A stretch of DNA of 64,000 nucleotides. Source: Candidatus Thorarchaeota archaeon (GTDB taxonomy: Archaea > Asgardarchaeota > Thorarchaeia > Thorarchaeales > Thorarchaeaceae). A model generated the notes under the pieces. The model was not told the origin of the DNA. It did not search any database and was given only the letters and a program-made list of their open reading frames with translations. The stretch spans positions 32,001 to 96,000 of the forward strand of contig DXJO01000004.1 in assembly GCA_019057475.1 (NCBI GenBank). The letters run 5' to 3'. This document shows positions 26,950 to 47,731 of the stretch, piece after piece. Every line of letters starts with the position of its first letter. The stretch's first letter is position 1. Made by a program: the position numbers and the translations under genes.

Positions 26950-28095
26950 TCAGAACTTCGGTAGTTCTTCGTACCTATGACAGAAAATCCAATGGCTTGG
27001 CTCTACTTCCCTGTATTCGGGGATTTGCTCTCTGCAGATGTCCTGAGCGTAATCACAACGTGGGCTAAACGGGCAACCTGGGGGCAGGTTCGTCATGTCC
27101 GGGGGTTTGCCGGGTATGCCTCGGATGCGAAACCCCTTCTCCCGTATCTTCCTGATGGTTTCCATCGAAGGATTGCTCATTATCAAGGCCCTAGTGAATG
27201 GGTGTCCGGGACTCATGAGCACAGTCTTGACGTCACCAAACTCCATTATTCTTCCCGCTGACATCACCGCTACACTATCGCAGGTTTGTGCAATCACACC
27301 TTGGTCGTTGCTTATGATCAAGAAGGCAATCTTCAGTTTATCGCGAACGAGCATGATTGCATCCAAGACTCTGCGTTGCACTCCAACATCAACTGCTGTG
27401 GTTGGCTCGTCTGCAATCATCAGCACTGGGTTTGTAATGATTGCCATCGCTATGAGGATTCTTTGGTCCTCTCCCATGCTGAATTGGCTTGGTTTCAGAT
27501 TCTTTCTGATGTCGGGGTCTGCCAATTCAACCAGGTCCAGCGCTTCCAAGACTAGTCTCGCTACTTCATGCTCCCACAAGATGGAGTCTTCATCATGAGT
27601 CCAGACCGCCTCGGCGATTTGAAGCGAAATCTTGCTGTATGGATTGAGCGACATTGCTGTTCCTTGAGGCACATATGTAATCTCGTTTCCCCGAATCTTG
27701 CGGTACTCCTTCTCATCAAGCGCAACTAGGTCATTGCCTCTGTACCATATGTGACCCTCAACTCCAGGCAACTCAATGTCCATCTCCGCCGATGCAAGGC
27801 CCTTCTTCTTGGCCTTATCTCTCAATGCCCAGAGTTGCTGGTTCTCTTTGTCCCCTGAGGTACTAGCATAATATCGTGACATTCTGTCAAAGATGCCAAG
27901 AATTGAGAGTGCGACAGATGTCTTTCCAGAGCCTGACTCACCAAAAAGCCCAACAGCCTCTCCCTCCTTAATCTCAAATGTAACATCGTTGACAGCTCTC
28001 ACAAGGCCTCTCTTCGACGTGAAGAATGCGCGAAGGTTTTCAACTCTCAGAATGGATTTATCCTTGCTGTCGGACATAGGTGAAGGACTAACCAT
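26950..28095 (-). CDS. stand-alone OppD-like ABC ATPase with degenerate signature
   Basis: GESGSGKT, FSMGEDQR, IADEPTT, H-loop ISND, GCPFSPRC. Confidence 0.9.
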   Translation of the reverse strand: MVSPSPMSDSKDKSILRVENLRAFFTSKRGLVRAVNDVTFEIKEGEAVGLFGESGSGKTSVALSILGIFDRMSRYYASTSGDKENQQLWALRDKAKKKGLASAEMDIELPGVEGHIWYRGNDLVALDEKEYRKIRGNEITYVPQGTAMSLNPYSKISLQIAEAVWTHDEDSILWEHEVARLVLEALDLVELADPDIRKNLKPSQFSMGEDQRILIAMAIITNPVLMIADEPTTAVDVGVQRRVLDAIMLVRDKLKIAFLIISNDQGVIAQTCDSVAVMSAGRIMEFGDVKTVLMSPGHPFTRALIMSNPSMETIRKIREKGFRIRGIPGKPPDMTNLPPGCPFSPRCDYAQDICREQIPEYREVEPSHWIFCHRYEELPKF

Positions 28096-28165: not shown

Positions 28166-28954
28166 GTGTGCTTAGCGATGGGACGGATACAAGTACGGTA
28201 CACAACAGCTAACGGACGTAAGGAAACTGAGGAGTTTGGCACAAGTGACCACGTCCTTAAACTAAGCTTCAGAAATATCGCTGCAATTGATCTCTCTCCG
28301 TTAGGCCTGTGCAGCGATTTGAAACTGCTTGACCTATCGAACAACGAGCTTGAGTGTCTTGATGTATCTCCATTGAAGCATTGCTTTAACTTGCAGTTTA
28401 TTCGGTGTCAACAGAACCGCCTGGAAGATATAGATCTGTCACCCCTTAGTCAGTGTGTCCGTCTTGAACTGCTGAATTTCTCAGGGAATTTGTTACAATG
28501 CGTTGCATTTCCAGACCTTGGGCATGACTGTAATCTCAAAGAGATATTTCTCTCGAATAACCAACTCGAAGGTATTGACCTCTCACAGTTGAGTCAATGC
28601 TCGCGGCTGAAGTGGCTCAAGATCGCGCATAACCGTCTACCGAATATTGATCTCTCAGCGCTCAGTAACTGTTCCTCTCTGGAGGAGCTTGACCTAAGCG
28701 CGAATAGACTTGAAGAATTGAATGTTGAACCTCTTGGCCTGTGCCCGGCTCTCCGCGAATTGTGGCTTCATGACAACGGGATGCAGAGTCTTGACGTGTC
28801 AGCGCTGTTCGAATGTCCTCAGCTGGCAACACTTCAAACCGAAGCACCAACATCGCAATTTGCACTAACTCTGAGAGCAGATGAGCAGCTAAGTAGCAGG
28901 ACACGCATCCCACCTGCTTTGGAAGACCTTCGAAGCCGAATTCATTGGGTCTAG
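28166..28954 (+). CDS. leucine-rich repeat protein
   Basis: About eight 24-aa repeats of IDLSPLxxCxxLxxLxLxxNxL. Confidence 0.92.
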   Translation: MCLAMGRIQVRYTTANGRKETEEFGTSDHVLKLSFRNIAAIDLSPLGLCSDLKLLDLSNNELECLDVSPLKHCFNLQFIRCQQNRLEDIDLSPLSQCVRLELLNFSGNLLQCVAFPDLGHDCNLKEIFLSNNQLEGIDLSQLSQCSRLKWLKIAHNRLPNIDLSALSNCSSLEELDLSANRLEELNVEPLGLCPALRELWLHDNGMQSLDVSALFECPQLATLQTEAPTSQFALTLRADEQLSSRTRIPPALEDLRSRIHWV

Positions 28955-33388: not shown

Positions 33389-34403
33389 CTACTTGCTTGG
33401 TGCGGCCTTCCAGTCAAGAATATGTGCCATCCAACCAGCAGTTCGTGCCATGGCAAACAGTGAGGTGTTGAGTTCTGCGGGTATGCCCAAAGTTGTGTAA
33501 ACAGCAGCATTGTAGAGATCCACGTTTGGATGCAGTGTCAACCCCTTTCGTTCACGCGCAAGCAATGGTCCCACGCTCGCCACTTCCTCCACGAGTTTGT
33601 AGAGTTGGTCATGCCTTGTTCCTAAGGCACGTCTCTTGAGGATGTTTCTTAGGATCACTGCTCTTGGATCAATTGTGCGATAAATCCTATGTCCGATCCC
33701 AAATATCCTCTGTCCTGAGTCCAGCCTCTTTGCCAGCTTGGCTCTAACCATGGTCGGATCAGCGATATCCTCTATCATCTTCATGGCTCTTAGGCCGGCT
33801 CCATGATGAAGAGGGTTTCCGTGAATTAACAATGCGGAACCTAGAGCTTCAGAGAGGGAAACCCCAGCTTTGACCCCACGTTCCAGCGCAGAGAGCGAGG
33901 GATTATCGGGGTCGTCCATGTGAAGAATGACCGTGGTTTCAAGGTCCTTAAGGTCTCGAGTCGATGGAAGTGATCCTGTTAGCGTCCAGATGAAGTTGGC
34001 CACATGGTTCAGATCCGTTCTTGGTTCGATGAGTTTGAGTTTCTCACACTCCCGCCAAGAGTTCGCAATCACAATGGGGGTGAGAGCAACCATTGTGAGC
34101 AGAGTTTCAAATTGATCTAGGCGAAGCTCCGTTCTAATCATATTAAGACTCTCACTCAGCCAAATCAGAGCAGACATGCAGTCGCCTTTTTGTACGGAAC
34201 CCAAACTTAGAGTTTCAATAGCTGATTCTCGCAGGCGTATTATCGAGGACACAAAATCATCATGCTGTTCCGCGGAAGGACGGCTGCTGTGAACCAACAG
34301 ATAGAGAATGGACTCGAAATCATAATCCAGAGCCAAGTCGGCTACATTTAGTCCCCTGAATAAGCTGTCCTTCCTCGGGGTCAATTCTACTTATGGGTTG
34401 CAA
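33389..34403 (-). CDS. divergent citrate/2-methylcitrate synthase-like protein; apparent frameshift near 5' end (~34360)
   Basis: GIGHRIY, DPRA, PNVDLY, FAMARTAGWMAH; an alternative frame upstream reads PISRIDPEEGQL. Confidence 0.8.
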
Positions 34404-34545
34404 GAAACTCTTCCAGTTCGACCCCGCCCAATCAAGCTGATAAGGCTAGCTATTATGGGTCACTTGCAAACTGATTCGGGGTGAACAGTTAAGTTATGTA
34501 GTGAAGCAATGAGCATCGATGCTTGAAGTGGAGGGATGAATACCT

Positions 34546-35583
34546 GTGGTACGACCCGGTCCAGGCTGTGCTGTTTGGGAGATCACACTGAAGTGCAATC
34601 TGAATTGCATGCATTGCGGCTCCGCAGCTGGAAAAGCACGAAGCGATGAGCTTACCACAGATGAAGCACTGCAACTATGTGATGACCTGAAAGGCATCGG
34701 TTGTCAGGGCGTCGCTATGATGGGTGGCGAGCCACTACTTAGAAAAGATTGGCCATCTATCGCAGAGCGAGTACGCGAAGTAGGCATGGACCTGTCGATT
34801 ATCACTAACGGGTACAAAATCACTGAGAGCAAATTTCAGCGAATCTTCGATGTCAACCCCGAGTTGGTTACAGTAAGTATTGATGGCGGGCACGCCGCTA
34901 TTCATGATACGATACGCGGAGTTCCGGGCTCCTTCAAACAGGTAGTAGCAACTCTTCGCCGACTCGTGAAATCTGGCTTGCCAACTGGTGTCATCACCAC
35001 TGTCCACAAGATGAACCTAGGCGAGCTTCCCACTATCCGAAAATTCTTGCTGGGCACGGGCGTAGCGTGGCAGATACAGATGGCCACGCCCTACGGGCGT
35101 CTTACATATGATCATGTTCTCTCAAAGGAAGAATACTATTCACTGGCTCTATTCATTGCTGCCACCCGGAAGAGGTACTCCAAGAAGGAGCTCATGATTG
35201 CAGGTGCACATGACATGGGCTACTTCTCACGGGTTCTCCCCCCCTTGCAAGTGTATCCGTGGCAAGGCTGTCAAGCTGGCATCTCAACACTTGGGATTGA
35301 GAGCAATGGAAACATCCTTGGGTGTCTTGCATTGCCTCCGGAGTACGTGGAGGGCAACATTCGCGAACGGCCTCTGAAAGAGATCTGGAACGATGACGCT
35401 TTTTCCTCGTACACTCGCAGAGTTCGGCGGACTGACTTGGGCAGCGAGTGCGCCAGCTGTACATACAGTAAGATATGCAAGGGTGGCTGTTCTGCCGTTT
35501 CTCATTCGATGGCAGGTGGACTTCATCGAGATCCATATTGCCTTCGTCTTATTGAAGAGGGACTCAAGAAAAGCAACAGTTGA
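34546..35583 (+). CDS. radical SAM/SPASM peptide maturase, PlpX (splicease)-like
   Basis: VWEITLKCNLNCMHCGS, GGEP, AWQIQMATPYGR, WQGCQAGISTLGIESNGNILGC, CASC...CKGGC...DPYC. Confidence 0.9.
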   Translation: MVRPGPGCAVWEITLKCNLNCMHCGSAAGKARSDELTTDEALQLCDDLKGIGCQGVAMMGGEPLLRKDWPSIAERVREVGMDLSIITNGYKITESKFQRIFDVNPELVTVSIDGGHAAIHDTIRGVPGSFKQVVATLRRLVKSGLPTGVITTVHKMNLGELPTIRKFLLGTGVAWQIQMATPYGRLTYDHVLSKEEYYSLALFIAATRKRYSKKELMIAGAHDMGYFSRVLPPLQVYPWQGCQAGISTLGIESNGNILGCLALPPEYVEGNIRERPLKEIWNDDAFSSYTRRVRRTDLGSECASCTYSKICKGGCSAVSHSMAGGLHRDPYCLRLIEEGLKKSNS

Positions 35584-35627
35584 CATCTTGGGAAAAACAT
35601 TTCTTCTAAGGACTACTCTATTACATC

Positions 35628-35993
35628 ATGTCATTGATGGATATGATTCCAGTTGGGATTGAACTACTCCGACTTAGTGGGCGAGACGGCGTGTACGCTA
35701 TTCTATCACGGGTGTTCAAAGCTCAACCGACACCTCTGGCATATAGAAGAAGAATCAGGCCGCTCGGCGCTAGCGTAGGATTGTCAGAGGCTGAGGTTGA
35801 CGAGGTTATTAGCGGGAGTTCTAATGTTACGGTCCTTCCATCTTGGTTGAAGTGGGGTCTTGTTGCTTTCATAGTCGTTGTGTTGATTCTTAGTGCCATC
35901 GCGGTGACCGGGTCGTACGTGCCCTGGTATACGAATCCGACCTACGTTCCAGGTACCGACTATGCAAGCATCAGGCCTAAGGATTTCTTGTAG
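35628..35993 (+). CDS. single-TM candidate precursor 1 (tail TYVPGTDYASIRPKDFL)
   Basis: Paralogue of the next three ORFs: LGAxxGLxxxE motif, TM helix, conserved tail. Confidence 0.85.
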   Translation: MSLMDMIPVGIELLRLSGRDGVYAILSRVFKAQPTPLAYRRRIRPLGASVGLSEAEVDEVISGSSNVTVLPSWLKWGLVAFIVVVLILSAIAVTGSYVPWYTNPTYVPGTDYASIRPKDFL

Positions 35994-36452
35994 GAATGGC
36001 CTATTGAGTTCGTGCATATACCTAAAGATCAAGTGGCATTACGCTATTCAATGAATTATCTCATCCCTTTGCGTTGCGTAAGTTTCTTATTGGAGTTAGT
36101 CTAATGTTCATACATGCTTCTAGATAAACCTCCCACCGTCGGACTTGACATCCTCCGTACCCGGGGCGGAGAGCGTCTTTACCGATTGATTCTTCGAATT
36201 GCGGGGATTCCAACAGTCAGGGCAATGCCCTCGAAGGAATTAGTGCGTCTTGGAGCCAAGGTCGGGCTTGAAGCGTCGGAGGTTGAACAGGTTGCAGAGA
36301 GCAGACCTGATGTAAATGTGCTTCCCGATTGGTTGAAGGCAATTCTAGCCCTCATTGTGATTGTTGGCTCGTACTATCTGGGGCGAAGAATGACCTATCT
36401 CCCCGGGACGTTGTATGGAGCCATAGGTCCACGGGACTTCTTGTAGGAATGG
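35985..36452 (+). repeat. direct repeat TTCTTGTAGGAATGG spanning the stops of precursors 1 and 2
   Basis: Exact 15-mer at 35985-35999 and 36438-36452. Confidence 0.8.
36114..36446 (+). CDS. single-TM candidate precursor 2 (tail TYLPGTLYGAIGPRDFL)
   Basis: Same architecture; LYG motif. Confidence 0.85.
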   Translation: MLLDKPPTVGLDILRTRGGERLYRLILRIAGIPTVRAMPSKELVRLGAKVGLEASEVEQVAESRPDVNVLPDWLKAILALIVIVGSYYLGRRMTYLPGTLYGAIGPRDFL

Positions 36453-36539
36453 TCCAGAGGGTTCATCTGAATAACTTGGAAACTGGCTTGCATTACGCGT
36501 ATCAATAGCTTTTATGCTTCGGAGCCCTACCGTCTTCTC

Positions 36540-36923
36540 ATGACTTGGAGGGAATCCATTCTCTATGAACTGAACGCAACTCGCTTTCGACGGCTAGGCG
36601 GGCTTGGAGGGCTCAAAGATTGGGTGTGCGGTTTCTTAGCAACTTCAGTTCTTGATACAGAGAAAGCCGAGCAGTTAGGCGCTCAAGCTGGTCTGACTTC
36701 CGACGAGGTTGGAGCTGTTATGGACGCTCGAATGAGCAGAAAAGAGAGCATCCTGTTCAAGCTGACGGTAGTAGTTTTTACGCTCATAATTGTGGGAGCA
36801 GTTATTATGGCAGACCCATTAGGTGTTTTTGGCCAATACCCCGCCACCAACACCACGTACGTGCCGGGTACGCGCTATGGCAGCATCAGCCCGAAGGACT
36901 TCCAGTGGGGATTCGCACATTAA
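36540..36923 (+). CDS. single-TM candidate precursor 3 (tail TYVPGTRYGSISPKDFQWGFAH)
   Basis: Same architecture; RYG motif. Confidence 0.85.
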   Translation: MTWRESILYELNATRFRRLGGLGGLKDWVCGFLATSVLDTEKAEQLGAQAGLTSDEVGAVMDARMSRKESILFKLTVVVFTLIIVGAVIMADPLGVFGQYPATNTTYVPGTRYGSISPKDFQWGFAH

Positions 36924-37000
36924 CACTTGTCGATTATTCAGGGCCAGTCGCTCTACGCCAACCGATAATCTTAACGGCTTTGACCCCATACTATACAACT

Positions 37001-37369
37001 ATGAATTGGATGGAACTCTGTCTGTATCAACTGGATGTGGTTTCTATCCGAGGGAGCCGCCGCTTCCTTGGGCCTATGGAATGGCTTCGCAGTTTCTTGA
37101 CAAAACCAGTCCTTGGGTCAGAGAAGATCGAGCTGCTCGGTGCTCAAGCAGGTCTCGAACCCAATGAGGCTCGAGACGCAGTAAGCATGCCCGCAAGCAA
37201 GGGTGAGAGCATAGTGTTCAAGCTGGTTGTGGGGATTGTGCTTTTCTCAATCTTGATTTCGATTGTGATTATGAGCCCAATAGGCGCCTACATCAATCAG
37301 GAGCTCTTCAACACAACTTACCTGCCAGGGACACTCTATGGAAGCATCAGTCCGAAAGACTTCAGGTAA
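37001..37369 (+). CDS. single-TM candidate precursor 4 (tail TYLPGTLYGSISPKDFR)
   Basis: Start moved to ATG 37001 because MNWMELCLYQL aligns with MTWRESILYEL of copy 3; LYG motif. Confidence 0.85.
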   Translation: MNWMELCLYQLDVVSIRGSRRFLGPMEWLRSFLTKPVLGSEKIELLGAQAGLEPNEARDAVSMPASKGESIVFKLVVGIVLFSILISIVIMSPIGAYINQELFNTTYLPGTLYGSISPKDFR

Positions 37370-37374
37370 GCACG

Positions 37375-38688
37375 ATGCGAATCCACGTGGGCTGCGGCCC
37401 GGTCTACAAGAAGGGCTACGTCAACATTGACGTCTTTGATCCTACTGTTGCAGATCGTATCATGTCTGCATATCATCTGGAATTTCCCGATGACTCAGCA
37501 AGTCTTGTGGAGTGTATGCACACTCTCGAACACCTGGGTGCAGCGAAGAGCATCTATGCATTGGCTGAATTCTTTCGCGTATTGAAACCTGGGGGTGTCT
37601 TACTTCTGGAAATCCCAGACATAGAAGCAACCTTTGCAAACTTTCTCAAGCACGGGGAAAAACAAAGGAAGCTCCTAATGAACTGGATCTACGGCTTAGA
37701 TTCGCCAGGGATGGGCCATCGCTACTGCTTCCCCCGGGAACTGCTCAGTCGCATGTTGAAAGAGTCTGGGTTCAAAGATATCCTGTTGAAGCGGCTCGCG
37801 ACCAAATCTATCCAACCATCATTGCGGGTCAAGTGCAGGAAACCTGAATCGTATATTGCCCATCAGATTATTTCACGTGTACGACGTTCTCTGGTAGACA
37901 ATGGCCTAGTTGATCTTGATGACCAAGTCAGTGCACTTGACCGCGAAACTCTCATCCAATCTCTTGCTTCACTGACACATCAGCTGTGTGCCAAATGGGA
38001 TGAACTGGCGCTAAGGCAGATGACCATAGAATCAGCGGTGCAGAATCCGCGAATGGGGTTGGCTTTCATCGAGCAACTTGAGAGCCAGGTTTCTGAGTCG
38101 GCTTCTCGGGTGAAGAGGTATGGGCGGATTCTCGAAACACTGGGGTCTCTTGACTTCCCTGCAGTTTTGTTGCATCTACTTATGCAGGTTCCTCCACAGG
38201 TAGGAACTCAGAACCAGACGTACCTGACTGTCCGAAATATGGGGGTTGCCACTGTCAAGAAGCTTCTTGCAGGAAAGGAAGAACAGGCAGTCTCGAAGGA
38301 GCTGCGACGAACACGTGCGGCGTTGTCTGGCGATAAAATTCTGAGCCACTTCTCTGAAGAAGGAGTGAAGCGCCTTGCAGAGCAGAGTTTCGCTCACGGT
38401 GCAAAAGCTTTTGCTAATCATGAACTAACTGAGGCCGTTCGATTGTTCGAAGAGGCGTTCAGTCTTAATCGTGATGATCTTCTTATTACATGGAACCTAG
38501 CGCGTCTGAAGGCGATCGAAGGAAAAGGAGATACGTCAAAGAAGTACTATGAAATGACTTCCTTGCTTGCCCAACGCTACAAGCAACCCTTCCGTCGAAG
38601 GATGCTCGAGCGGCTTCGCTCTGAAATCAGTCTTGCATCCGAGGGCCAGATGGATGGCCTAGCAGCACCAGTCTACCAGGCCTTCTAG
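37375..38688 (+). CDS. class I SAM-dependent methyltransferase with C-terminal TPR
   Basis: IHVGCG...VNID, HTLEHL, RVLKPGG; C-terminal EAVRLFEEAFSLN...WNLARL. Confidence 0.88.
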   Translation: MRIHVGCGPVYKKGYVNIDVFDPTVADRIMSAYHLEFPDDSASLVECMHTLEHLGAAKSIYALAEFFRVLKPGGVLLLEIPDIEATFANFLKHGEKQRKLLMNWIYGLDSPGMGHRYCFPRELLSRMLKESGFKDILLKRLATKSIQPSLRVKCRKPESYIAHQIISRVRRSLVDNGLVDLDDQVSALDRETLIQSLASLTHQLCAKWDELALRQMTIESAVQNPRMGLAFIEQLESQVSESASRVKRYGRILETLGSLDFPAVLLHLLMQVPPQVGTQNQTYLTVRNMGVATVKKLLAGKEEQAVSKELRRTRAALSGDKILSHFSEEGVKRLAEQSFAHGAKAFANHELTEAVRLFEEAFSLNRDDLLITWNLARLKAIEGKGDTSKKYYEMTSLLAQRYKQPFRRRMLERLRSEISLASEGQMDGLAAPVYQAF

Positions 38689-39946: not shown

Positions 39947-41800
39947 TTGAGCAAAGAACGGAAGAAGAAAGAAGACATCTCTTTGGAAGATCTGATAGCT
40001 CTACCTGTCCAGTTCATGGGCAACCCTGGTAGAACTAGTCGAAGAATATGCTTTGCATCAAATAAGACTGGCCGAATGGAATTACATTTACTTGATCTTG
40101 AAACGCAAGAGTTCTCTCAACTATCAAATGGTGAGTATCCAATATCTCCAGTGGGTTGGCATAAATGGGCTCCAGATGACACATATCTCCTATTTCCTAA
40201 GGACCCAATTCAGGGAAATGAGAAGAATGACATCTACAAAATATCAGTCCCAGATGGAAGAGTAACGCAAATTACCAATACTCCTGAATCCAGCGATGAC
40301 TTGGGAGAGGTTAGCCATGATGGGAAATGGATTGTCTTCCGCTCCGATCGTGTTGAGGGTATTGATCAACTGTTCAGAATGCGCCCTGATGGAACGGAAG
40401 TCACGCAGCTCACAGAGCATACCCGCCCGATTTCATTCTGGTCAGATGTTAGTATATCCCCAGATGATGAGTGGATTGCTTATACTGCAAATGAATCAGA
40501 GAATCTCCAGAATATCGATGTATGGGTTGTGAAAATGGATGGTTCTGATAGGAAGAAGCTCTTTGGAGTCCAAGATGGATCAAAGGAGTTGGTTCGGGCT
40601 TGGTCACGCGATGGTACTATGTTATTAGTATCATCTGACTATGCGGGGACTGACCAAGCTGGAGTTTATTTCCTGAACTCAGGTAATGTGAAATGGTTTG
40701 GAGAAGCAAGTGCTCCTGAGTCACCAGTGAAATTCACTGCTGATGGTAAACAAATCATAGTTGGACGTGACATTGATGCTGAGCAGAAACTTCTCCTCTA
40801 TGATATAAAAACTGGAGAGGAAACCACACTCGATATCCCCTCTGGATTTGCAGGTGCAGTATACACTACATTTGACGGAAATCATCTACTTGTGGGTCAT
40901 CAAGACTCGACCCATCGAATGCGTTTCATACTATACGATCTCATCAAGCATTCCTTTGAAGAGGTCATCCCTGCAGAGTATGGGAGATTTTCTCCTGAAG
41001 ATTTCCTCCCAGATGAATACATCAGCTATCCTTCTGGTGACACGACGGTTCATGCGATTCTATACAGGCCAAAGAATCTCAAGCGTGGTGTGAAGCTACC
41101 TGCTATCGTAGTACCCCATGGAGGTCCTACTGGACACTATATCCGCGTCTTCCTTGATGATGCTCAGGTACTTGCAAATGAAGGATATGTCTTATTGTAC
41201 CCGAATGTAAGAGGATCCACAGGATATGGTGTAGAATTCAGAGATGCATGTCTGAATGACTGGGGGGGCAAGGATCTTGATGACGTTGAGGCTGGGGTTG
41301 AGTATCTACGTAGTCTAGATTATGTGAATCCTGACCGAATAGGAATACATGGTGGTAGCTATGGAGGTTATTTGACATTCATGGCTGTCACAAAAAAGCC
41401 AGACCTCTGGAAAGCAGCCTCAGCTTGGATGGGAATCACTTCATTAAAGCATCTCCACGAGAAGTGCAAGGAAACATTCCCGGCTCTGCCATATTACCTT
41501 GAGGAGCAGATGGGCAAACCTGAGGACGAAGGAGTTCTTGAACTATGGGAAGACAGAAGCGCAATCAACTTCGTGAAGAATATGTCCGCCAAGCTTCAAA
41601 TGATTCATGCTGAGAACGACCCGCGATGTCCCATCGAGCAGTCTGAGATGTTCAGAGACCGATTAGTCGAATTGGGACGAAAAGAGGGAGAAGACTTCGA
41701 GTATGTCCATCTAACAGAAGAGGGACACGGGTCATTCGATAAAGACCAACGCGTACGGATGATGCGTCACGTCTTTGACTTCTTTAATCGAAACCTCTGA
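39947..41800 (+). CDS. S9 family peptidase (acylaminoacyl peptidase-like) with beta-propeller
   Basis: HGGP, NVRGSTGYG, GGSYGG, NDPRC, EGH. Confidence 0.95.
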   Translation: MSKERKKKEDISLEDLIALPVQFMGNPGRTSRRICFASNKTGRMELHLLDLETQEFSQLSNGEYPISPVGWHKWAPDDTYLLFPKDPIQGNEKNDIYKISVPDGRVTQITNTPESSDDLGEVSHDGKWIVFRSDRVEGIDQLFRMRPDGTEVTQLTEHTRPISFWSDVSISPDDEWIAYTANESENLQNIDVWVVKMDGSDRKKLFGVQDGSKELVRAWSRDGTMLLVSSDYAGTDQAGVYFLNSGNVKWFGEASAPESPVKFTADGKQIIVGRDIDAEQKLLLYDIKTGEETTLDIPSGFAGAVYTTFDGNHLLVGHQDSTHRMRFILYDLIKHSFEEVIPAEYGRFSPEDFLPDEYISYPSGDTTVHAILYRPKNLKRGVKLPAIVVPHGGPTGHYIRVFLDDAQVLANEGYVLLYPNVRGSTGYGVEFRDACLNDWGGKDLDDVEAGVEYLRSLDYVNPDRIGIHGGSYGGYLTFMAVTKKPDLWKAASAWMGITSLKHLHEKCKETFPALPYYLEEQMGKPEDEGVLELWEDRSAINFVKNMSAKLQMIHAENDPRCPIEQSEMFRDRLVELGRKEGEDFEYVHLTEEGHGSFDKDQRVRMMRHVFDFFNRNL

Positions 41801-41949
41801 TTCGATTAGTAAACATATGATGGGGAGTTCTGGTGGCCTTTCATACCGCGAACTCTCCTGATGGGATTTCACTAGAGTCATTCTGTCTAGTCTCAAGTAC
41901 CTGTTTCTTCTGAATATAACTCGCGCAATAGGCGTTTGAACAAGGTAAT

Positions 41950-43151
41950 TCACTCAGGTTCCTGGGGTCTCGCAAGCAGCGCCTGCTGATATCGTTTCAT
42001 GCCAACATAATACACGGGAACCGGAAGCAGTTCCATAATTCCCACCATGACGAATGGAGCAGCGGGGTTGAGTGAAACCCACATCATTCCTCCCATAATG
42101 GGCGCAACGAATCTCGCGAAGGCCAGCACACCGCGGAAGTGACCAAACCCTTCGTGAGCCTTCCCCTCGTACGCTGTGCCAAATACAGAAGACATCACAG
42201 TGTGACCTGCTGTCCCAACAACGGTCTGAACGATGAAGATTGCGGCAATCCACCACAGGTTGGGGGCAAAGACGAACATGATGTTTGTTGCAAACCCAAT
42301 CAGGGATGCGAATGCAACCACGTGGATTTTGTTGGCTTTGTCTGCATATCTCCCTATAGGCTCGCTCACGAATGAAATGATGATACCCGGGGGAAGGTAA
42401 ACCAGTGCTATGAGCATGATGTCTGTGGTGAATCTCTCGAGAATGAATAGCTCGACAAATGGCGATAGAAGTGACATCCCAAAGGCATTGATGGCTGCAG
42501 CTATCACCAACGCTACAATACCAACGGCAATTGCGGCCTGCTTGTTTTGAGAGAGAACCGGCGCTTCTTACTCGATTGGCGGCACTCGACTTGCTAGCAC
42601 TATCACTCCACCGATTAGGCTAGTCGCAGCAAAGAACAAGAACGGAACAATTCCGTTGAAGATGGTTAATAGGCTGAAACCAATAAACGCCCCTATTATG
42701 GACTCACGCCCGTTTGCAGCTTCCCGACGCCCGAAAGCTTCTGCTCGATTCTCATGAATTGCTCGCTCGGAAATCTCTGCATCACTGCCTACATAGTAGA
42801 AGGCCGCTCCGCATCCCCATACAAGACTATTGAGAATGAGCAAATCCACCAATCCGAGGTAGATTGCCATAGCCATTCCGATGTATGATAGTGATCGAAA
42901 CAGAGCTCCTGCAAAGATTGCTTGACGCCTTCGTTTTCTCTTCACGATTCTTCCGGCCAATGGTGAGAATATCGCAATTCCAAGAGTGAATGAAGCGAAG
43001 ATCATCCCCACCTGGATTGCATTGGCTCCATTGTGACCGCCATGATTGGAAGAATGAATGCCACATAGAAAAAGCCCAAACTGCAGAAAAGCGATGAATT
43101 GTAGATTGACTTGGGGCTCGCCCAATCAGTCTTCCTTTGCGAATCTTCTAT
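41950..43151 (-). pseudogene. disrupted MFS transporter
   Basis: In-frame TAA at 42568-42570 separates two same-frame ORFs; frameshift near 43030; ATA in the expected start position after GGAGG. Confidence 0.8.
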
Positions 43152-43198
43152 GTTATCCCTCCCCCTCAGTTTGCTTTCCTGTCTGGGTGTTCTATCCG

Positions 43199-44182
43199 CT
43201 AGAGATAACAGGCTACGAATCTACCGGGCTTGACTTCAACCAGTTCCGGCTCCTCGGCTTTGCACTGAGGACCGAATTCCTGACAGCGAGGCTTGAAGCG
43301 GCATCCCGGAGGAAGGTCAATGGGAGTTGGGGTTTCTCCAGGCAGCATTATCCTATGCCTCTTATGTGTGGGGTCTGGTATCGGGATGTTTGAAACCAAC
43401 GCCTTTGTGTAAGGATGAAGCGGATCCATGATGACCTCCTCCATTGGGCCCGTTTCCACAAGGCGTCCAAGATACATTATGACGATGTAATCGGCGATGT
43501 ATCGTGCTTGAGCCAAATCGTGAGTGATGAAGATATAGGTGAGGCCATGTTCCTCCTGCAGGTCTTCCATTAGGTTCATGATCTCGGTTCGAATGCTTGC
43601 ATCAAGCATGGACACTGGTTCATCAGCGATTATGAGCTTCGGCTCCAAGATGAGTGAACGTGCGATTGCCACTCTCTGAAGCTGACCTCCGCTGAGCTCA
43701 TGTGTGTAGCGCCTTGCAAAATCCTTTGCCGGCATGAGCCTTACATTCTCGAGAGCAGCAAGAACGCGACGGCGCAGTTCGGCTTCATTTTCTTCGATTT
43801 TGTGAATGGTGAGCCCCTCACCGACAAGTGTTTCAACGGTAAGCCGGGGGTCTAGGACCTCGAAGGGGTTCTGGAAGATGATCTGCATTTTCAGTCTCAA
43901 CAGGCGGAGTTCCTCTCGCGTCAAATCGGATATGTTGACTCCTTCGAAGTATGCACTTCCTGACGTGGGTTCAATAAGACGAAGGATAGTCCTAGCTAGT
44001 GTTGTTTTACCGCAGCCAGACTCTCCTGCAATGGCGATTGAGCCGCCTCTCGGGACATCAAAGCTCACATCGTCTACAGCCTTTACGTATTTCTTTTCCT
44101 GCATGAAAGAAAGGAGTCCTGAACGCACAGGAAACCATTTCTTTAGGTTCCGAACTTCAAGGATGGGCTCTACTGATGTCAT
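43199..44182 (-). CDS. peptide ABC transporter ATPase (OppF-like)
   Basis: [23 protein letters not shown]. Confidence 0.95.
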   Translation of the reverse strand: MTSVEPILEVRNLKKWFPVRSGLLSFMQEKKYVKAVDDVSFDVPRGGSIAIAGESGCGKTTLARTILRLIEPTSGSAYFEGVNISDLTREELRLLRLKMQIIFQNPFEVLDPRLTVETLVGEGLTIHKIEENEAELRRRVLAALENVRLMPAKDFARRYTHELSGGQLQRVAIARSLILEPKLIIADEPVSMLDASIRTEIMNLMEDLQEEHGLTYIFITHDLAQARYIADYIVIMYLGRLVETGPMEEVIMDPLHPYTKALVSNIPIPDPTHKRHRIMLPGETPTPIDLPPGCRFKPRCQEFGPQCKAEEPELVEVKPGRFVACYL

Positions 44183-45156
44183 TCAATCACCTCGAAAGAC
44201 AGTTCTCCAGCGAAGTGACACTTTGCGTAATGTCCCTGCTTGATTTCTCTATACATAGGTTCTTTCTCTTTGCAGATATCCTGAGCGTAGGGACACCTTG
44301 GATGGAACCTGCAGCCAGCGGGAGGATTCAGTAGGTTTGGAGGAGTACCTGGAATGAACTGCAGGCGCTTCTTTTCCCCGATTACACTCGGGAATGCACC
44401 AATCAACTTGGATGTGTACGGATGCAGATTGTGCTTGAACACTGCCTTCGCACTGCCCACTTCAACTAGGTTGCCTGCGTACATTATGCCTACGTTGTGA
44501 CAGTTCTCTGCAACAACTGACAGGTCGTGAGTGATGAACAGGACTGCAAGCTCGTACTTTTCCTGCAGCTTCCTGAGCAAGTCCAGTATCTTGTTCTGGA
44601 CTATCACGTCAAGGGCTGTCACCGGCTCGTCAGCAATGACGAGCATTGGATCACACGCAAGAGACTGGGCAATGATGGCACGTTGGAGCATTCCGCCACT
44701 GAACTCATGAGGGTAGTCTCTTTGCCTCTTCGGTTCTAGACCCACCTCATCGAAAAGATCGGAAACAGTTGCTCTTGCCTCTTCCTTGCTGACACCTTCC
44801 TTCTCACGAATCACCTCAACAATCTGGGCGCCTATGCGAAGCACAGGATTGAACGCATTCATGGCGTACTGGAAAATTATGGATGCTTTTCTCCATCTTA
44901 AATACCTTATCTCCTCTTCACTGAGAGCGGTAATTTCCTCATCTCCAAGCCTTATCGTGCCCTGTACTATCCGACCGTTCTCAGGGAGCAGACGCATGAT
45001 GCTGTATGCAGTAGTTGTCTTGCCGCAGCCTGACTCACCAGCGAGCCCAAGAGTTTCCTTCGCCTCTATCTTGAAGGACACACCATCTACGGCCTTGACT
45101 GACTCCTTGCCGAGGTAGTAGTAGGTCTTGAGATTCTCAACTTCAAGAACTGCCAT
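44179..45156 (-). CDS. peptide ABC transporter ATPase (OppD-like)
   Basis: [16 protein letters not shown]; start set to ATG 45156. Confidence 0.95.
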   Translation of the reverse strand: MAVLEVENLKTYYYLGKESVKAVDGVSFKIEAKETLGLAGESGCGKTTTAYSIMRLLPENGRIVQGTIRLGDEEITALSEEEIRYLRWRKASIIFQYAMNAFNPVLRIGAQIVEVIREKEGVSKEEARATVSDLFDEVGLEPKRQRDYPHEFSGGMLQRAIIAQSLACDPMLVIADEPVTALDVIVQNKILDLLRKLQEKYELAVLFITHDLSVVAENCHNVGIMYAGNLVEVGSAKAVFKHNLHPYTSKLIGAFPSVIGEKKRLQFIPGTPPNLLNPPAGCRFHPRCPYAQDICKEKEPMYREIKQGHYAKCHFAGELSFEVIE

Positions 45157-45157
45157 T

Positions 45158-46705
45158 TCAGCGTCGCCTCCCTCGTAAGCGTGGATTGACAACTTTGTCC
45201 GCTGCGTGACTCACGAACACGAAACCTAACGAGGTCAGTAGGATCAGCAATCCCGGTGGAAGAATCCACCACCATGCCATATTGAGAAGTGCCGCGTTCT
45301 TGTTTGCCCAATGAAGCATGATACCCCAGCTGGGTGGCCCGTGAATATCCACGAAACCAAGGAACGCGATACCTGCCTCACCAAGAATAGCACTAACAAC
45401 ACCAAGAATCATGTTTGCCAAGATAAGTGGCAAAGTGTTTGGAAGAATGTGTTTGATGAGGATGTATCTATCCGAAGCACCTAATGCATGGGCCGCCTCT
45501 GTAAGAGGTCTCTCCCTGAGAGATAGCGCCTCACTTCGTACCATTCTCGCTGTTCCTGTCCAACCAAGAATTGCAATGACAAAAATGATGTTGTGAAGAC
45601 CCTGTCCAAACATAATCAGAAATACTAACATCAGTGGGAGTGTTGGAAGTGAAAGGAATACATCAGTTATTCGCATTAGAATAGTATCAACAGATCCGCC
45701 ATAATAGCCAGATATCAAACCCACTGTAGTACCTAGACCCACGGCGACAATACTAGCTGTGAATCCAACTATAAGTGAAATTTGAGTTCCATAAACTAGG
45801 CGACTCAAGATATCCTGACCGATGTGATTAGTTCCCAGCGGAAATTCTGCTGAAGGTGGTAGAAGCAGATTCTCTCCAATTCCAGCTGTTAATTCGCCCC
45901 AGTTTCGTATCAACCCTGCCCATTCAAGCACTGGTGCAATTAATGCTAGACCAACGATTGCGCCAATAATGCCCAGACCGACAAGCCCCATCCGTTCATG
46001 AACGAACTCGCTCCAGAATGATTCAATGCTCCTGCGATAATTCCAAATCGATTCGATTATTTTGGGAAGGATCATGTATGCTGGAATTAGGATGAATGTT
46101 GCGATAAGTGAGATTCCACCCAGTGTATTGTTTAGTGGCACCGAAAGCACTGCTGGCAAAATAGTAGTTCCAGTTGCTGCTTCGGAGAGGAATCCTTCTA
46201 ACACAATCCAGATTCCTACACTGCCAACTGCGATTCCACGATAAAGATCAATCTGTCGATTCGACCAATGGGCGAGTAGTTTTGGATTCCATAGAAAGAG
46301 CACGAATGCGAAAATGAATCCTATTCCTATACCAAATGCAAAGAAGAAGAGTATTGTAAGTCCAACTAGTAATAATGGTTGTAGAATTTTTACCAGACGA
46401 TAATTATAGAACTGCTTGTAATAAAGTGCGAGGAACATTGTTCCTCCGAACAATGCCCAACCGCTGATTCGATATGATGTTGTTATGAACAAACTGTAAT
46501 CTTCAGACAACCCTGTTACTTCGAAGGACAACCATCCAACTAAGATGTTTGTCACTGAATCTACAATGAATATGACTAAGAGAGTAAGTAAGATGAACGA
46601 TCCTAGTGAAGCCAATTTTACATGCCAGGGTTTCTTCTTACTTGCTGTTTCGAATATTTCATTGTCTGAATCCGTTGAGATATCTTGGTGTGTCATTTTC
46701 TGCAT
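45158..46705 (-). CDS. peptide ABC transporter permease (OppC-like) with large N-terminal TM extension
   Basis: PLGTNHIGQDILSR, EAAHALGA, PSWG. Confidence 0.93.
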   Translation of the reverse strand: MQKMTHQDISTDSDNEIFETASKKKPWHVKLASLGSFILLTLLVIFIVDSVTNILVGWLSFEVTGLSEDYSLFITTSYRISGWALFGGTMFLALYYKQFYNYRLVKILQPLLLVGLTILFFFAFGIGIGFIFAFVLFLWNPKLLAHWSNRQIDLYRGIAVGSVGIWIVLEGFLSEAATGTTILPAVLSVPLNNTLGGISLIATFILIPAYMILPKIIESIWNYRRSIESFWSEFVHERMGLVGLGIIGAIVGLALIAPVLEWAGLIRNWGELTAGIGENLLLPPSAEFPLGTNHIGQDILSRLVYGTQISLIVGFTASIVAVGLGTTVGLISGYYGGSVDTILMRITDVFLSLPTLPLMLVFLIMFGQGLHNIIFVIAILGWTGTARMVRSEALSLRERPLTEAAHALGASDRYILIKHILPNTLPLILANMILGVVSAILGEAGIAFLGFVDIHGPPSWGIMLHWANKNAALLNMAWWWILPPGLLILLTSLGFVFVSHAADKVVNPRLRGRRR

Positions 46706-46711
46706 TCCTCC

Positions 46712-47731
46712 TTAATATCTAATTCTTGGATCCAGGTACAAGTACAACACATCCGCTAGAAAATTCGCAAAAACTGTGATACTTGCTAAGAATAGAAATA
46801 TCCCCTGTAAAACCGGATAATCTACTGATAATACAGAATGATACGTCAACAATCCTAATCCTGACCAACTAAAAACGAATTCAGTAATCATAGCGCCACT
46901 GATAAGGTACGGTAGGTTGACTGCAACAACGCTGACCATCGGTAACATTGCATTTCTCATAGCATGTCCAAAGAGTATTGTGCGTTCTTTGAGCCCTTTT
47001 GCTCTAGCTGCAAGAATATAATCTTGTGTGAACACATCTAGTACCGAATCTCTCATTATCAGGTAGAAACCTCCAATGAACGATAATGTTAGAACTATCC
47101 ATGGCCCTGTCATATGCCACAAGTAATCACGCCAATAATCAAGGAAATTCACATGCACATAGCCTCTTGTGATTGTTCCTGCAAGAGGAATAATTCCTAA
47201 TTGAAATCCGAAAAACATCAGCATTAGTAGACCAATCCAAAATACGGGCATTGCGTATGCGACAAGAAAAGTTACAGTGGATCCAGTGTCAATTAAGGTG
47301 TCGCGTCGAGCTGCTGCAATAACACCGACTACTATTCCGATGATTATTGCTGCGGCCATTGAAGCTCCCATCAGAATGAATGTGTTTGCAAATCTGAAAT
47401 CAAAAATCGTTTTCCAAACTGGCTCTCCGAAATGTGAAAAGGAATAGCCCATGTCTCCTTGAAAGAGATTAACCAGATAGATGAAATATTGTTCAATGAG
47501 ACTCTTGTCTAACCCAAATCGTTCAACGATTGCTTGTCTAAGTTCTGGAGGGATGCCTTCACCTAGAAGTGCCTGACGAGGATCTCCTGGCATAACTCTG
47601 AAAATGATAAAATTCAGTGTTATGATCATAAACCACACTATGATTGTTTGTACGAAACGCTGAGCAATATACCGCCGGGTTCCAACACTAGTTCTTGCTG
47701 ACACAGCACCACTCTCATTCAATATATGCAA
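46712..47731 (-). CDS. peptide ABC transporter permease (OppB-like)
   Basis: MPGDP, DYILAARAKGL, LDPRIR; true start may be slightly downstream. Confidence 0.93.
   Translation of the reverse strand: MHILNESGAVSARTSVGTRRYIAQRFVQTIIVWFMIITLNFIIFRVMPGDPRQALLGEGIPPELRQAIVERFGLDKSLIEQYFIYLVNLFQGDMGYSFSHFGEPVWKTIFDFRFANTFILMGASMAAAIIIGIVVGVIAAARRDTLIDTGSTVTFLVAYAMPVFWIGLLMLMFFGFQLGIIPLAGTITRGYVHVNFLDYWRDYLWHMTGPWIVLTLSFIGGFYLIMRDSVLDVFTQDYILAARAKGLKERTILFGHAMRNAMLPMVSVVAVNLPYLISGAMITEFVFSWSGLGLLTYHSVLSVDYPVLQGIFLFLASITVFANFLADVLYLYLDPRIRY

What the first reader, a model, noticed from the sequence alone, without database searches (positions are those of the whole stretch)
34546..38688. Candidate archaeal (Asgard) spliceotide system: PlpX-like radical SAM splicease, four membrane-anchored substrates and a methyltransferase
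Seen: a radical SAM/SPASM gene directly followed by four paralogous 110-127-aa genes with a conserved Tyr-containing tail, then a methyltransferase, all co-directional. Established (from recall): the cyanobacterial splicease PlpX excises a tyramine equivalent from XYG motifs to leave an alpha-keto-beta-amino acid, and its substrate context is MYGVVFP. This enzyme shares the PlpX-type segments VWEITLKCNL.C.HCGS.AG, AWQIQ...P.GR and WQGC.AG.STLGIE..G.I.GC..LP. Three tails read LYGAIGP, RYGSISP and LYGSISP, the same YG-x-x-x-P spacing. Inference: backbone splicing installs ketoamide groups, a known protease-inhibiting warhead, on membrane-tethered proteins of a peptide-degrading archaeon. Spliceases are known to be widespread, but I know of no description of this precursor architecture or of an Asgard example.
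Basis: partly seen in the sequence, partly recalled or inferred. Interest (0 to 1): 0.95.

Follow-up and report, generated by a model that had tools for sequence, protein, structure and literature searches.

The report
Asgard-wide splicease-like membrane-protein modification cassette
About a quarter of sampled Asgard archaeal genomes, including the cultured strain MK-D1, carry an enzyme related to bacterial tyrosine-excising 'spliceases', next to small membrane proteins whose tyrosine-bearing tails it probably rewrites, perhaps into protease-blocking groups; this is untested but now directly testable.

Summary
Observation confirmed. A Thorarchaeota radical SAM/SPASM gene is followed by four single-helix membrane paralogs with a shared Tyr tail, then a methyltransferase-TPR gene. 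The enzyme falls in the clade holding the splicease-type families TIGR04103/TIGR03913/TIGR04133 (99/98); grouping with Ahb/NirJ, PqqE or MftC is rejected. It is below every family cut-off and forms its own subfamily. The enzyme occurs in 108 of 400 Asgard genomes, 99 of them with the methyltransferase, including cultured Promethearchaeum syntrophicum MK-D1. Precursor logic is strong: a conserved leader helix, soluble relatives with 2-5 tandem cores, and a predicted complex (0.81; best control 0.01) that places leader and tail on the enzyme. Correction: the motif is Tyr-x6-Asp-Phe, not YG-x3-P. The residue after Tyr is often Ser or Ala, and Tyr/Phe in bacterial relatives that fuse a Kunitz inhibitor domain. 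Tyramine splicing is the best guess (~0.62); a surface protease-inhibitor role is weaker (~0.35-0.4). The methyltransferase target is unknown. Archaeal spliceotide clusters were reported generally; I could not read that paper. This scan found the same cassette before in another Thorarchaeota genome. Verdict: new variant of a known kind.

The parts
34546..35583 (+). Radical SAM/SPASM maturase (345 aa) of the splicease clade. CxxxCxxC at C17/C21/C24; seven invariant SPASM Cys (242, 260, 302, 305, 311, 315, 332); lacks the C-terminal extension of TIGR04103/TIGR03913 proteins
35628..35993 (+). Precursor A1 (121 aa): leader helix 46-52, hydrophobic helix ~77-95, tail Tyr112 (nt 35961-35963) in D-Y-A context (non-YG)
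36114..36446 (+). Precursor A2 (110 aa): leader 46-52, short and weaker hydrophobic helix, tail Tyr101 (nt 36414-36416), L-Y-G
36540..36923 (+). Precursor A3 (127 aa): leader 46-52, hydrophobic helix ~71-89, tail Tyr113 (nt 36876-36878), R-Y-G; 5 residues longer than most orthologues
37001..37369 (+). Precursor A4 (122 aa): leader 46-52 (nt 37136-37156), hydrophobic helix ~72-90, tail Tyr113 (nt 37337-37339), L-Y-G; used in the complex prediction
37375..38688 (+). Class I SAM-dependent methyltransferase domain (~1-155) plus helical region with a TPR-like pair (437 aa); co-inherited with the rSAM in Asgard; substrate unknown

Best explanation
A RiPP-type protein-modification system forming its own subfamily within the splicease clade. 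(1, shown) The rSAM, small proteins and methyltransferase are co-inherited. (2, modelled) The cytosolic rSAM binds each small protein through its G-x-x-x-G-L leader helix and takes the C-terminal tail, from the invariant Tyr of Y-x6-DF, into its barrel. [quoted passage not shown] (4, inferred) The membrane helix ends only about 30 residues before the C-terminus, so insertion is probably post-translational, tail-anchored style. The tail could be modified in the cytoplasm and then displayed outside, N-in/C-out. No peptidase or exporter travels with the cassette. (5, weakly inferred) The displayed ketoamide acts as a tethered Ser/Cys protease inhibitor; the paralogs offer different side chains. 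(6, unknown) The methyltransferase-TPR adds a second modification to the same substrate or product.
For: Top NCBIfam hits are TIGR04103 (227.9 bits) and TIGR03913 (211.9), ahead of AhbD (166); all six other family members scanned have the same two best hits. The family plus TIGR04103/03913/04133 form one clade at 98/95 and 99/98. AU tests reject grouping with Ahb/NirJ (p 0.0012), PqqE (0.0055) or MftC (0.015). Sixteen positions are shared with TIGR04103/03913-type enzymes and rare in outgroups, including W175-Q-I-Q178, G225-Y226, W239. In four Asgard families (243 genomes) the rSAM is in 82, the precursor in 81, both in 78; rSAM and methyltransferase co-occur in 99 of 108/105. Only the leader Gly and the second Tyr are invariant in 43 diverse precursors; the -1 residue varies. 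Soluble relatives keep the leader and carry 2-5 tandem Tyr cores next to the same rSAM. Complex prediction: score 0.81, best control 0.01 (mark reached by 58 of 80 solved and 2 of 110 mismatched pairs; counts only rough with own alignments; runs agree on at least 63% of contacts; partner pLDDT at least 61); confident contacts at leader 46-52 and tail 113-121, not at the first Tyr. Leader-helix docking is the logic reported for Y-less spliceases (PMC11414181). Positive-inside bias favours N-in in 58/74 Thor-type and 22/24 Loki-type precursors. Bacterial relatives insert a Kunitz domain (Pfam 51.5 bits) between a signal-like segment and the tail, directly upstream of rSAM and methyltransferase. 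Ketoamide spliceotides inhibit Ser/Cys proteases (PMC11626197).
Against: No biochemical test. Scores are far below the cut-offs (725, 591.75, 425) and identity to reference enzymes is about 34-35%. A position as sister to all other splicease-type rows is not rejected (p 0.19), so the family is not shown to be bracketed by characterised spliceases. My references are HMM-assigned family members, not PlpX/PcpX themselves. The spliceotide motif is described as XYG, yet +1 is S in 32 and A in 13 of 126 precursors, and Y/F in 14 Kunitz-type ones. Fifteen family-invariant enzyme residues differ from TIGR04103/03913 (e.g. N88 vs G, I150 vs N, H222 vs N). No such methyltransferase was found next to the seven bacterial reference enzymes checked. 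A Kunitz domain inhibits proteases without any ketoamide, so the fusion is suggestive only.
Confidence: 0.62

Rival explanations
1. Same enzyme-substrate pairing, different Tyr chemistry: a radical at the invariant Tyr leads to a crosslink (for example to the Tyr six residues upstream), backbone cleavage/amidation, or a new product that the methyltransferase then caps.
For: Gly at +1 is not kept; a second Tyr at -6 is present in 102 of 110 DF-type precursors; barrel residues differ from TIGR04103/03913; basal position in the clade not rejected; a dedicated methyltransferase is co-inherited.
Against: The -6 Tyr is absent from Thermoplasmatales-type and most multi-pass precursors and is outside the confident interface. 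YA/YM variants also occur among DUF1843 precursors of TIGR03913-type loci. The variable -1 residue fits splicing, where X is permissive (PMC9811515).
Confidence: 0.25
2. Splicing occurs, but the active product is a peptide released from the membrane by a housekeeping protease, or the ketone serves as a reactive handle for signalling or surface linkage; the membrane helix is only an export device.
For: Soluble multi-core precursors without a membrane helix exist; Kunitz-type precursors have a signal-peptidase-like A-x-A site; final native spliceotide products are unknown (PMC9811515).
Against: No conserved cleavage motif after the helix in Asgard precursors; no peptidase or transporter in the cassette; MK-D1-type precursors are multi-pass membrane proteins. 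This rival shares steps 1-3 with the best explanation and differs only in fate and function.
Confidence: 0.3
3. The rSAM is a cofactor-biosynthesis enzyme (AhbC/AhbD/NirJ/PqqE/MftC type) and the small genes are unrelated neighbours.
For: AhbD, NirJ2, AhbC and MftC profiles all hit at 141-166 bits.
Against: AU rejection; near-perfect co-occurrence in both directions; flanking genes change while the cassette persists; the model supports binding to the small protein.
Confidence: 0.03

Closest known systems
Type I spliceotides: PlpX/PlpY/PlpA, PcpXYA (NCBIfam TIGR04103, nif11-class peptide radical SAM maturase 3)
   Same: rSAM/SPASM clade and diagnostic residues; adjacent small precursors with a Tyr site and variable preceding residue; three window precursors have XYG.
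   Different: 35% identity, 228 of 725 bits; enzyme about 70 aa shorter; no Nif11/NHLP leader; no Y protein; precursors have a membrane helix and a Y-x6-DF tail; +1 often not Gly; methyltransferase-TPR partner.
Y-less binary spliceases, e.g. Rheinheimera RhaX/RasX/RcsX (PMC11414181, PMC11626197), and TIGR03913 (GDL-motif/DUF1843-associated maturases)
   Same: Two-component logic in which a precursor helix docks on the enzyme; tandem precursor paralogs; YA/YM variants seen among DUF1843 paralogs.
   Different: Different leader motif; DUF1843 precursors are soluble with the Tyr near the N-terminus; 212 of 592 bits. Whether the leader uses the same enzyme surface as PlpY was not tested.
TIGR04133/TIGR04134 rSAM-lipoprotein systems (Parabacteroides and Treponema examples here)
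   Same: Same enzyme clade; a membrane-anchored partner with a YG motif (C-Y-G after the lipobox in Treponema), so membrane anchoring has a precedent. From memory, some were shown to be spliced in Scott et al. 2022; not verified.
   Different: Lipid anchor and N-terminal YG versus a transmembrane helix and C-terminal Tyr tail; 154 of 425 bits.
AhbC/AhbD/NirJ, PqqE, MftC
   Same: rSAM/SPASM fold only.
   Different: Rejected as sister groups; lack the diagnostic residues.

Membership tests
Spliceotide/splicease (broad) | Radical SAM enzyme with SPASM domain | tested here: met
   PF04055 and PF13186 over threshold; CxxxCxxC and seven SPASM Cys invariant
Spliceotide/splicease (broad) | Enzyme groups with PlpX-type enzymes rather than other SPASM families | tested here: met
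   Clade 99/98 with TIGR04103/03913/04133 members; rivals rejected. Caveat: nesting among characterised enzymes not shown (p 0.19)
Spliceotide/splicease (broad) | Adjacent dedicated precursor gene(s) | tested here: met
   81 of 92 loci (not deduplicated) by pattern; 78 genomes with both, of 82 and 81
Spliceotide/splicease (broad) | XYG splice motif in the precursor | tested here: inconclusive
   Met in A2, A3, A4 and 78 of 126 precursors; not met in A1 or in genomes with only YA/YS precursors
Spliceotide/splicease (broad) | [quoted passage not shown] | not testable with these tools
   Needs co-expression and MS
TIGR04103 (PlpX equivalog, type I) | Score above curated cut-off 725 | tested here: not met
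   227.9 bits; a Nostoc control scores 853
TIGR04103 (PlpX equivalog, type I) | Nif11/NHLP leader and separate Y protein | tested here: not met
   No significant Pfam or NCBIfam hit for A1-A4; no extra small gene conserved in the cassette
TIGR03913 (GDL-motif maturase) | Score above 591.75 and Y-x10-GDL/DUF1843 precursor | tested here: not met
   211.9 bits; tail is Y-x6-DF
TIGR04133/TIGR04134 (rSAM-lipoprotein) | Score above 425 and lipoprotein partner | tested here: not met
   153.7 bits; A1-A4 do not hit TIGR04134
AhbC/AhbD/NirJ/PqqE/MftC | Clusters with these families and reaches their cut-offs | tested here: not met
Tail-anchored membrane protein (works-like claim) | Membrane helix within about 30-35 residues of the C-terminus, N-in | tested here: inconclusive
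   Hydropathy and charge counts only: median 31-33 residues, range 19-50; no topology experiment

The most novel reading that the evidence does not exclude
A large share of Asgard archaea, including cultured MK-D1, use an undescribed splicease subfamily to build beta-amino-acid ketoamides into the backbone of integral membrane proteins at non-Gly sites (YA, YS, YN), tailor them with a dedicated methyltransferase, and display them on the cell surface as tethered protease inhibitors; bacterial relatives pair the same tail with a Kunitz domain.
Probability: 0.28. Interest if true: 0.88.

Novelty: new variant of a known kind. Interest (0 to 1): 0.72.

Why it matters
Native spliceotide products and their roles are still unknown (PMC9811515), and I found no characterised Asgard RiPP pathway in the papers searched. 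This cassette is in about 27% of sampled Asgard species genomes and in a cultured strain with named accessions (QEE16170.1 rSAM, QEE16169.1 methyltransferase, QEE16168.1 and QEE16166.1 precursors), so the native product can be sought by membrane proteomics. If it splices, it would extend backbone editing to integral membrane proteins in the lineage closest to eukaryotes, relax the XYG rule, and give compact 345-aa Y-independent enzymes for protein labelling. If the chemistry differs, it is a new radical SAM reaction. The methyltransferase is a second unexplained activity either way.

Tried and rejected
Upstream ATG at 34537 is out of frame (searches failed); GTG 34546 kept. Scott et al. 2022 (Chem) and a mechanistic paper recalled from memory are not held; no supplements were available, so I cannot exclude that this clade is among the 939 predicted systems mentioned in PMC10533398. 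Ten literature searches found no description of this cassette. PDB sequence search gave only distant SPASM enzymes. The methyltransferase model is confident (pLDDT 90.9) but matches only generic class I methyltransferases at 12-22% identity, so no substrate could be assigned. ESM Atlas hits for A4 (Piezo anchor, 0.84 or lower) are below the reliable range and were discarded. The promoter/terminator scan was close to shuffle level and uses a bacterial model. GC content is unremarkable, with no sign of recent transfer. My first AU test was mis-specified as an outgroup test; it really tests a basal position and is reported as such. The Pro at +5 argument was rejected. The precursor profile does not detect the longer multi-pass precursors of families f3, f8, f11, f20, f21; only their leader aligns (hhalign E 3e-4), so they were counted from loci only. 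The +1 counts come from a pattern that limits which residues are allowed, so they are approximate. Related genomes are not independent, so no p-value is given for co-occurrence.
Full report
Observation. The window carries six co-directional genes at 34546-38688: a 345-aa radical SAM/SPASM protein, four paralogs of 121, 110, 127 and 122 aa, and a 437-aa methyltransferase starting 5 bases after the last paralog. The four share a leader motif at residues 46-52, a hydrophobic helix and a tail T-Y-[VL]-P-G-T-x-Y-[GA]-[SA]-I-x-P-x-D-F. Three have XYG; A1 has D-Y-A. The tail pattern occurs four times in the whole genome, all here. Orthologous cassettes at 77-97% identity lie in named Thorarchaeota MAGs, and diverged ones in different gene neighbourhoods.

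The enzyme. Best NCBIfam hits are TIGR04103 (227.9 bits, cut-off 725) and TIGR03913 (211.9, cut-off 591.75), then AhbD (166) and TIGR04133 (154). In two maximum-likelihood trees it lies in one clade with annotated TIGR04103, TIGR03913/DUF1843 and TIGR04133 proteins (98/95; 99/98), and inside that clade in its own mostly archaeal subfamily (96/97 and 100/99). AU tests reject joining the subfamily to Ahb/NirJ (p 0.0012), PqqE (0.0055) or MftC (0.015), and do not reject joining it to TIGR04103/03913 (0.22) or TIGR04133 (0.29). A position as sister to all other splicease-type rows is also not rejected (0.19). Sixteen residues are shared with TIGR04103/03913-type enzymes and rare in outgroups; fifteen family-invariant residues are not shared. 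So it is a splicease-clade enzyme but not a member of any curated family. The references are HMM-assigned members, not PlpX itself.

Linkage and range. The rSAM was found in 108 of 400 Asgard-phylum genomes and the methyltransferase in 105, with 99 in common. In the four families where the precursor profile is sensitive (243 genomes), 82 have the rSAM, 81 a precursor and 78 both. The three precursor-only cases are a 52%-complete genome, one weak hit and one 88%-complete draft. Loki-type genomes carry ~85-aa precursors ending Y-P-x-G-T-x-Y-S-[ST]-[IV]-x3-D-F; other families carry 145-175-aa multi-pass forms ending Y-G-V-[YF]. One such cassette is in the complete genome of the cultured Promethearchaeum syntrophicum MK-D1: rSAM QEE16170.1, methyltransferase QEE16169.1, precursors QEE16168.1 and QEE16166.1 plus a third between them, with tails L-Y-N, K-Y-G and D-Y-D. 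The subfamily also reaches Thermoplasmatales-labelled archaea and bacteria.

Why the small proteins are precursors. In 43 diverse members only the leader Gly and the second Tyr are invariant. The residue before the Tyr varies (L 46, R 28, D 11, F 11, Y 10, K 9, M 5 of 126), as known for splice sites (PMC9811515). A library-wide profile search found 164 clusters, among them many soluble proteins that keep the leader, lack the membrane helix and repeat the Tyr core two to five times; those checked sit directly beside a subfamily rSAM. Leader plus repeated cores is the usual RiPP layout (established knowledge). The complex prediction for rSAM and A4 scored 0.81 against a best control of 0.01; that mark was reached by 58 of 80 solved complexes and 2 of 110 mismatched pairs, counts that hold only roughly with my own alignments; the runs agree on at least 63% of contacts and partner pLDDT is at least 61. 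It supports binding but does not show it. The leader docks on enzyme residues 158-162 and 196-206, and tail residues 113-121 touch residues that by sequence position belong to the barrel strands (my reading); the upstream Tyr107 is not among confident contacts. Y-less spliceases are reported to use a precursor helix in this way (PMC11414181).

The conserved feature is Tyr-x6-Asp-Phe, not YG-x3-P. The +1 residue is G in 78, S in 32 and A in 13 of 126 precursors (pattern-limited). Several Thorarchaeota genomes have only YA precursors and Loki-type genomes only YS, so these must be substrates if the system works. This departs from the XYG motif used to define spliceotides and is the main reason to keep a different Tyr reaction in play (0.25). 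YA and YM variants also occur among DUF1843 paralogs, which softens the objection.

Fate and function. Charge counts favour N-in (58/74 and 22/24) and the helix ends a median 31-33 residues before the C-terminus. I infer post-translational insertion, which would let a cytosolic Fe-S enzyme modify a tail that ends up outside. No peptidase or exporter is part of the cassette. In bacterial members, one labelled Geobacter metallireducens, the same leader is followed by a signal-like segment, a Kunitz protease-inhibitor domain (51.5 bits) and the tail K-Y-[YF]-T-V-S-x-x-D-F, directly upstream of the rSAM and methyltransferase; another Kunitz-type precursor has canonical K-Y-G. This points to an exported tail and a protease-related role, in line with the inhibitory activity of ketoamide spliceotides (PMC11626197), but it is circumstantial (about 0.35-0.4). 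The methyltransferase has invariant G6, G8, D19, E52, H53 and a TPR-like pair; its fold matches only generic enzymes. It is near-universal in Asgard cassettes, was not found in several non-Asgard loci (some short) nor beside the bacterial references. It is probably an accessory tailoring step; target unknown.

Comparison and novelty. It probably works like a splicease system; it is not a member of TIGR04103, TIGR03913 or TIGR04133. Spliceotide clusters were already detected in archaeal genomes (PMC11626197, citing Scott et al. 2022, not held), and lipid-anchored YG partners exist in TIGR04133/04134 loci, so neither 'archaeal' nor 'membrane-anchored' is without precedent. In the literature I could search I found no account of this subfamily, its transmembrane precursors, non-Gly sites, methyltransferase partner, Kunitz fusions or presence in MK-D1.

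Verdict. Real, conserved, widespread in Asgard archaea and testable in a cultured strain. New variant of a known kind. Confidence that it is a Tyr-tail modifying system about 0.9, that the reaction is tyramine splicing about 0.62. Interest 0.72.

Noticed in passing
L017:2695-2901 (Agathobacter rectalis plasmid record NZ_CP143948.1): Unannotated 68-aa ORF ending in an M-Y-G motif directly upstream of a splicease-clade rSAM and an MFS transporter; a probable gut-bacterial spliceotide precursor missing from the annotation.
   Followed up: partly
L036-L038, L148: Two or three tandem paralogs of the subfamily rSAM, interleaved with short soluble precursors.
   Followed up: partly
L045:4482-4964, L047:412-831, L141-L143, P0337-P0351: Bacterial Kunitz-domain precursors with the same leader and Tyr tail; several loci continue into an ankyrin-repeat protein gene.
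   Followed up: partly
P0315: A 133-aa protein with two complete leader-plus-core units in one chain.
   Followed up: no
L052, L055, L057, L058: Further splicease-clade rSAMs (34-37% identity) outside this subfamily, with no precursor found by my patterns.
   Followed up: no
window 33389-34384 (-): Citrate-synthase-like gene (by sequence appearance) divergent from the rSAM; absent in L003 and truncated in L006, so not part of the cassette.
   Followed up: partly
window 36540-37369: A3 and A4 carry an N-T-T sequon between the helix and the Tyr; 27 of 121 membrane precursors have a sequon there, weakly consistent with an outside-facing tail.
   Followed up: partly
window 28166-28954 (+): Leucine-rich-repeat protein gene (by sequence appearance), unrelated to the cassette.
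   Followed up: no
window 26950-28095, 39947-47731: Peptide ABC transporter subunits and an S9-type peptidase near the cassette (by sequence appearance); not conserved beside it in related loci.
   Followed up: partly
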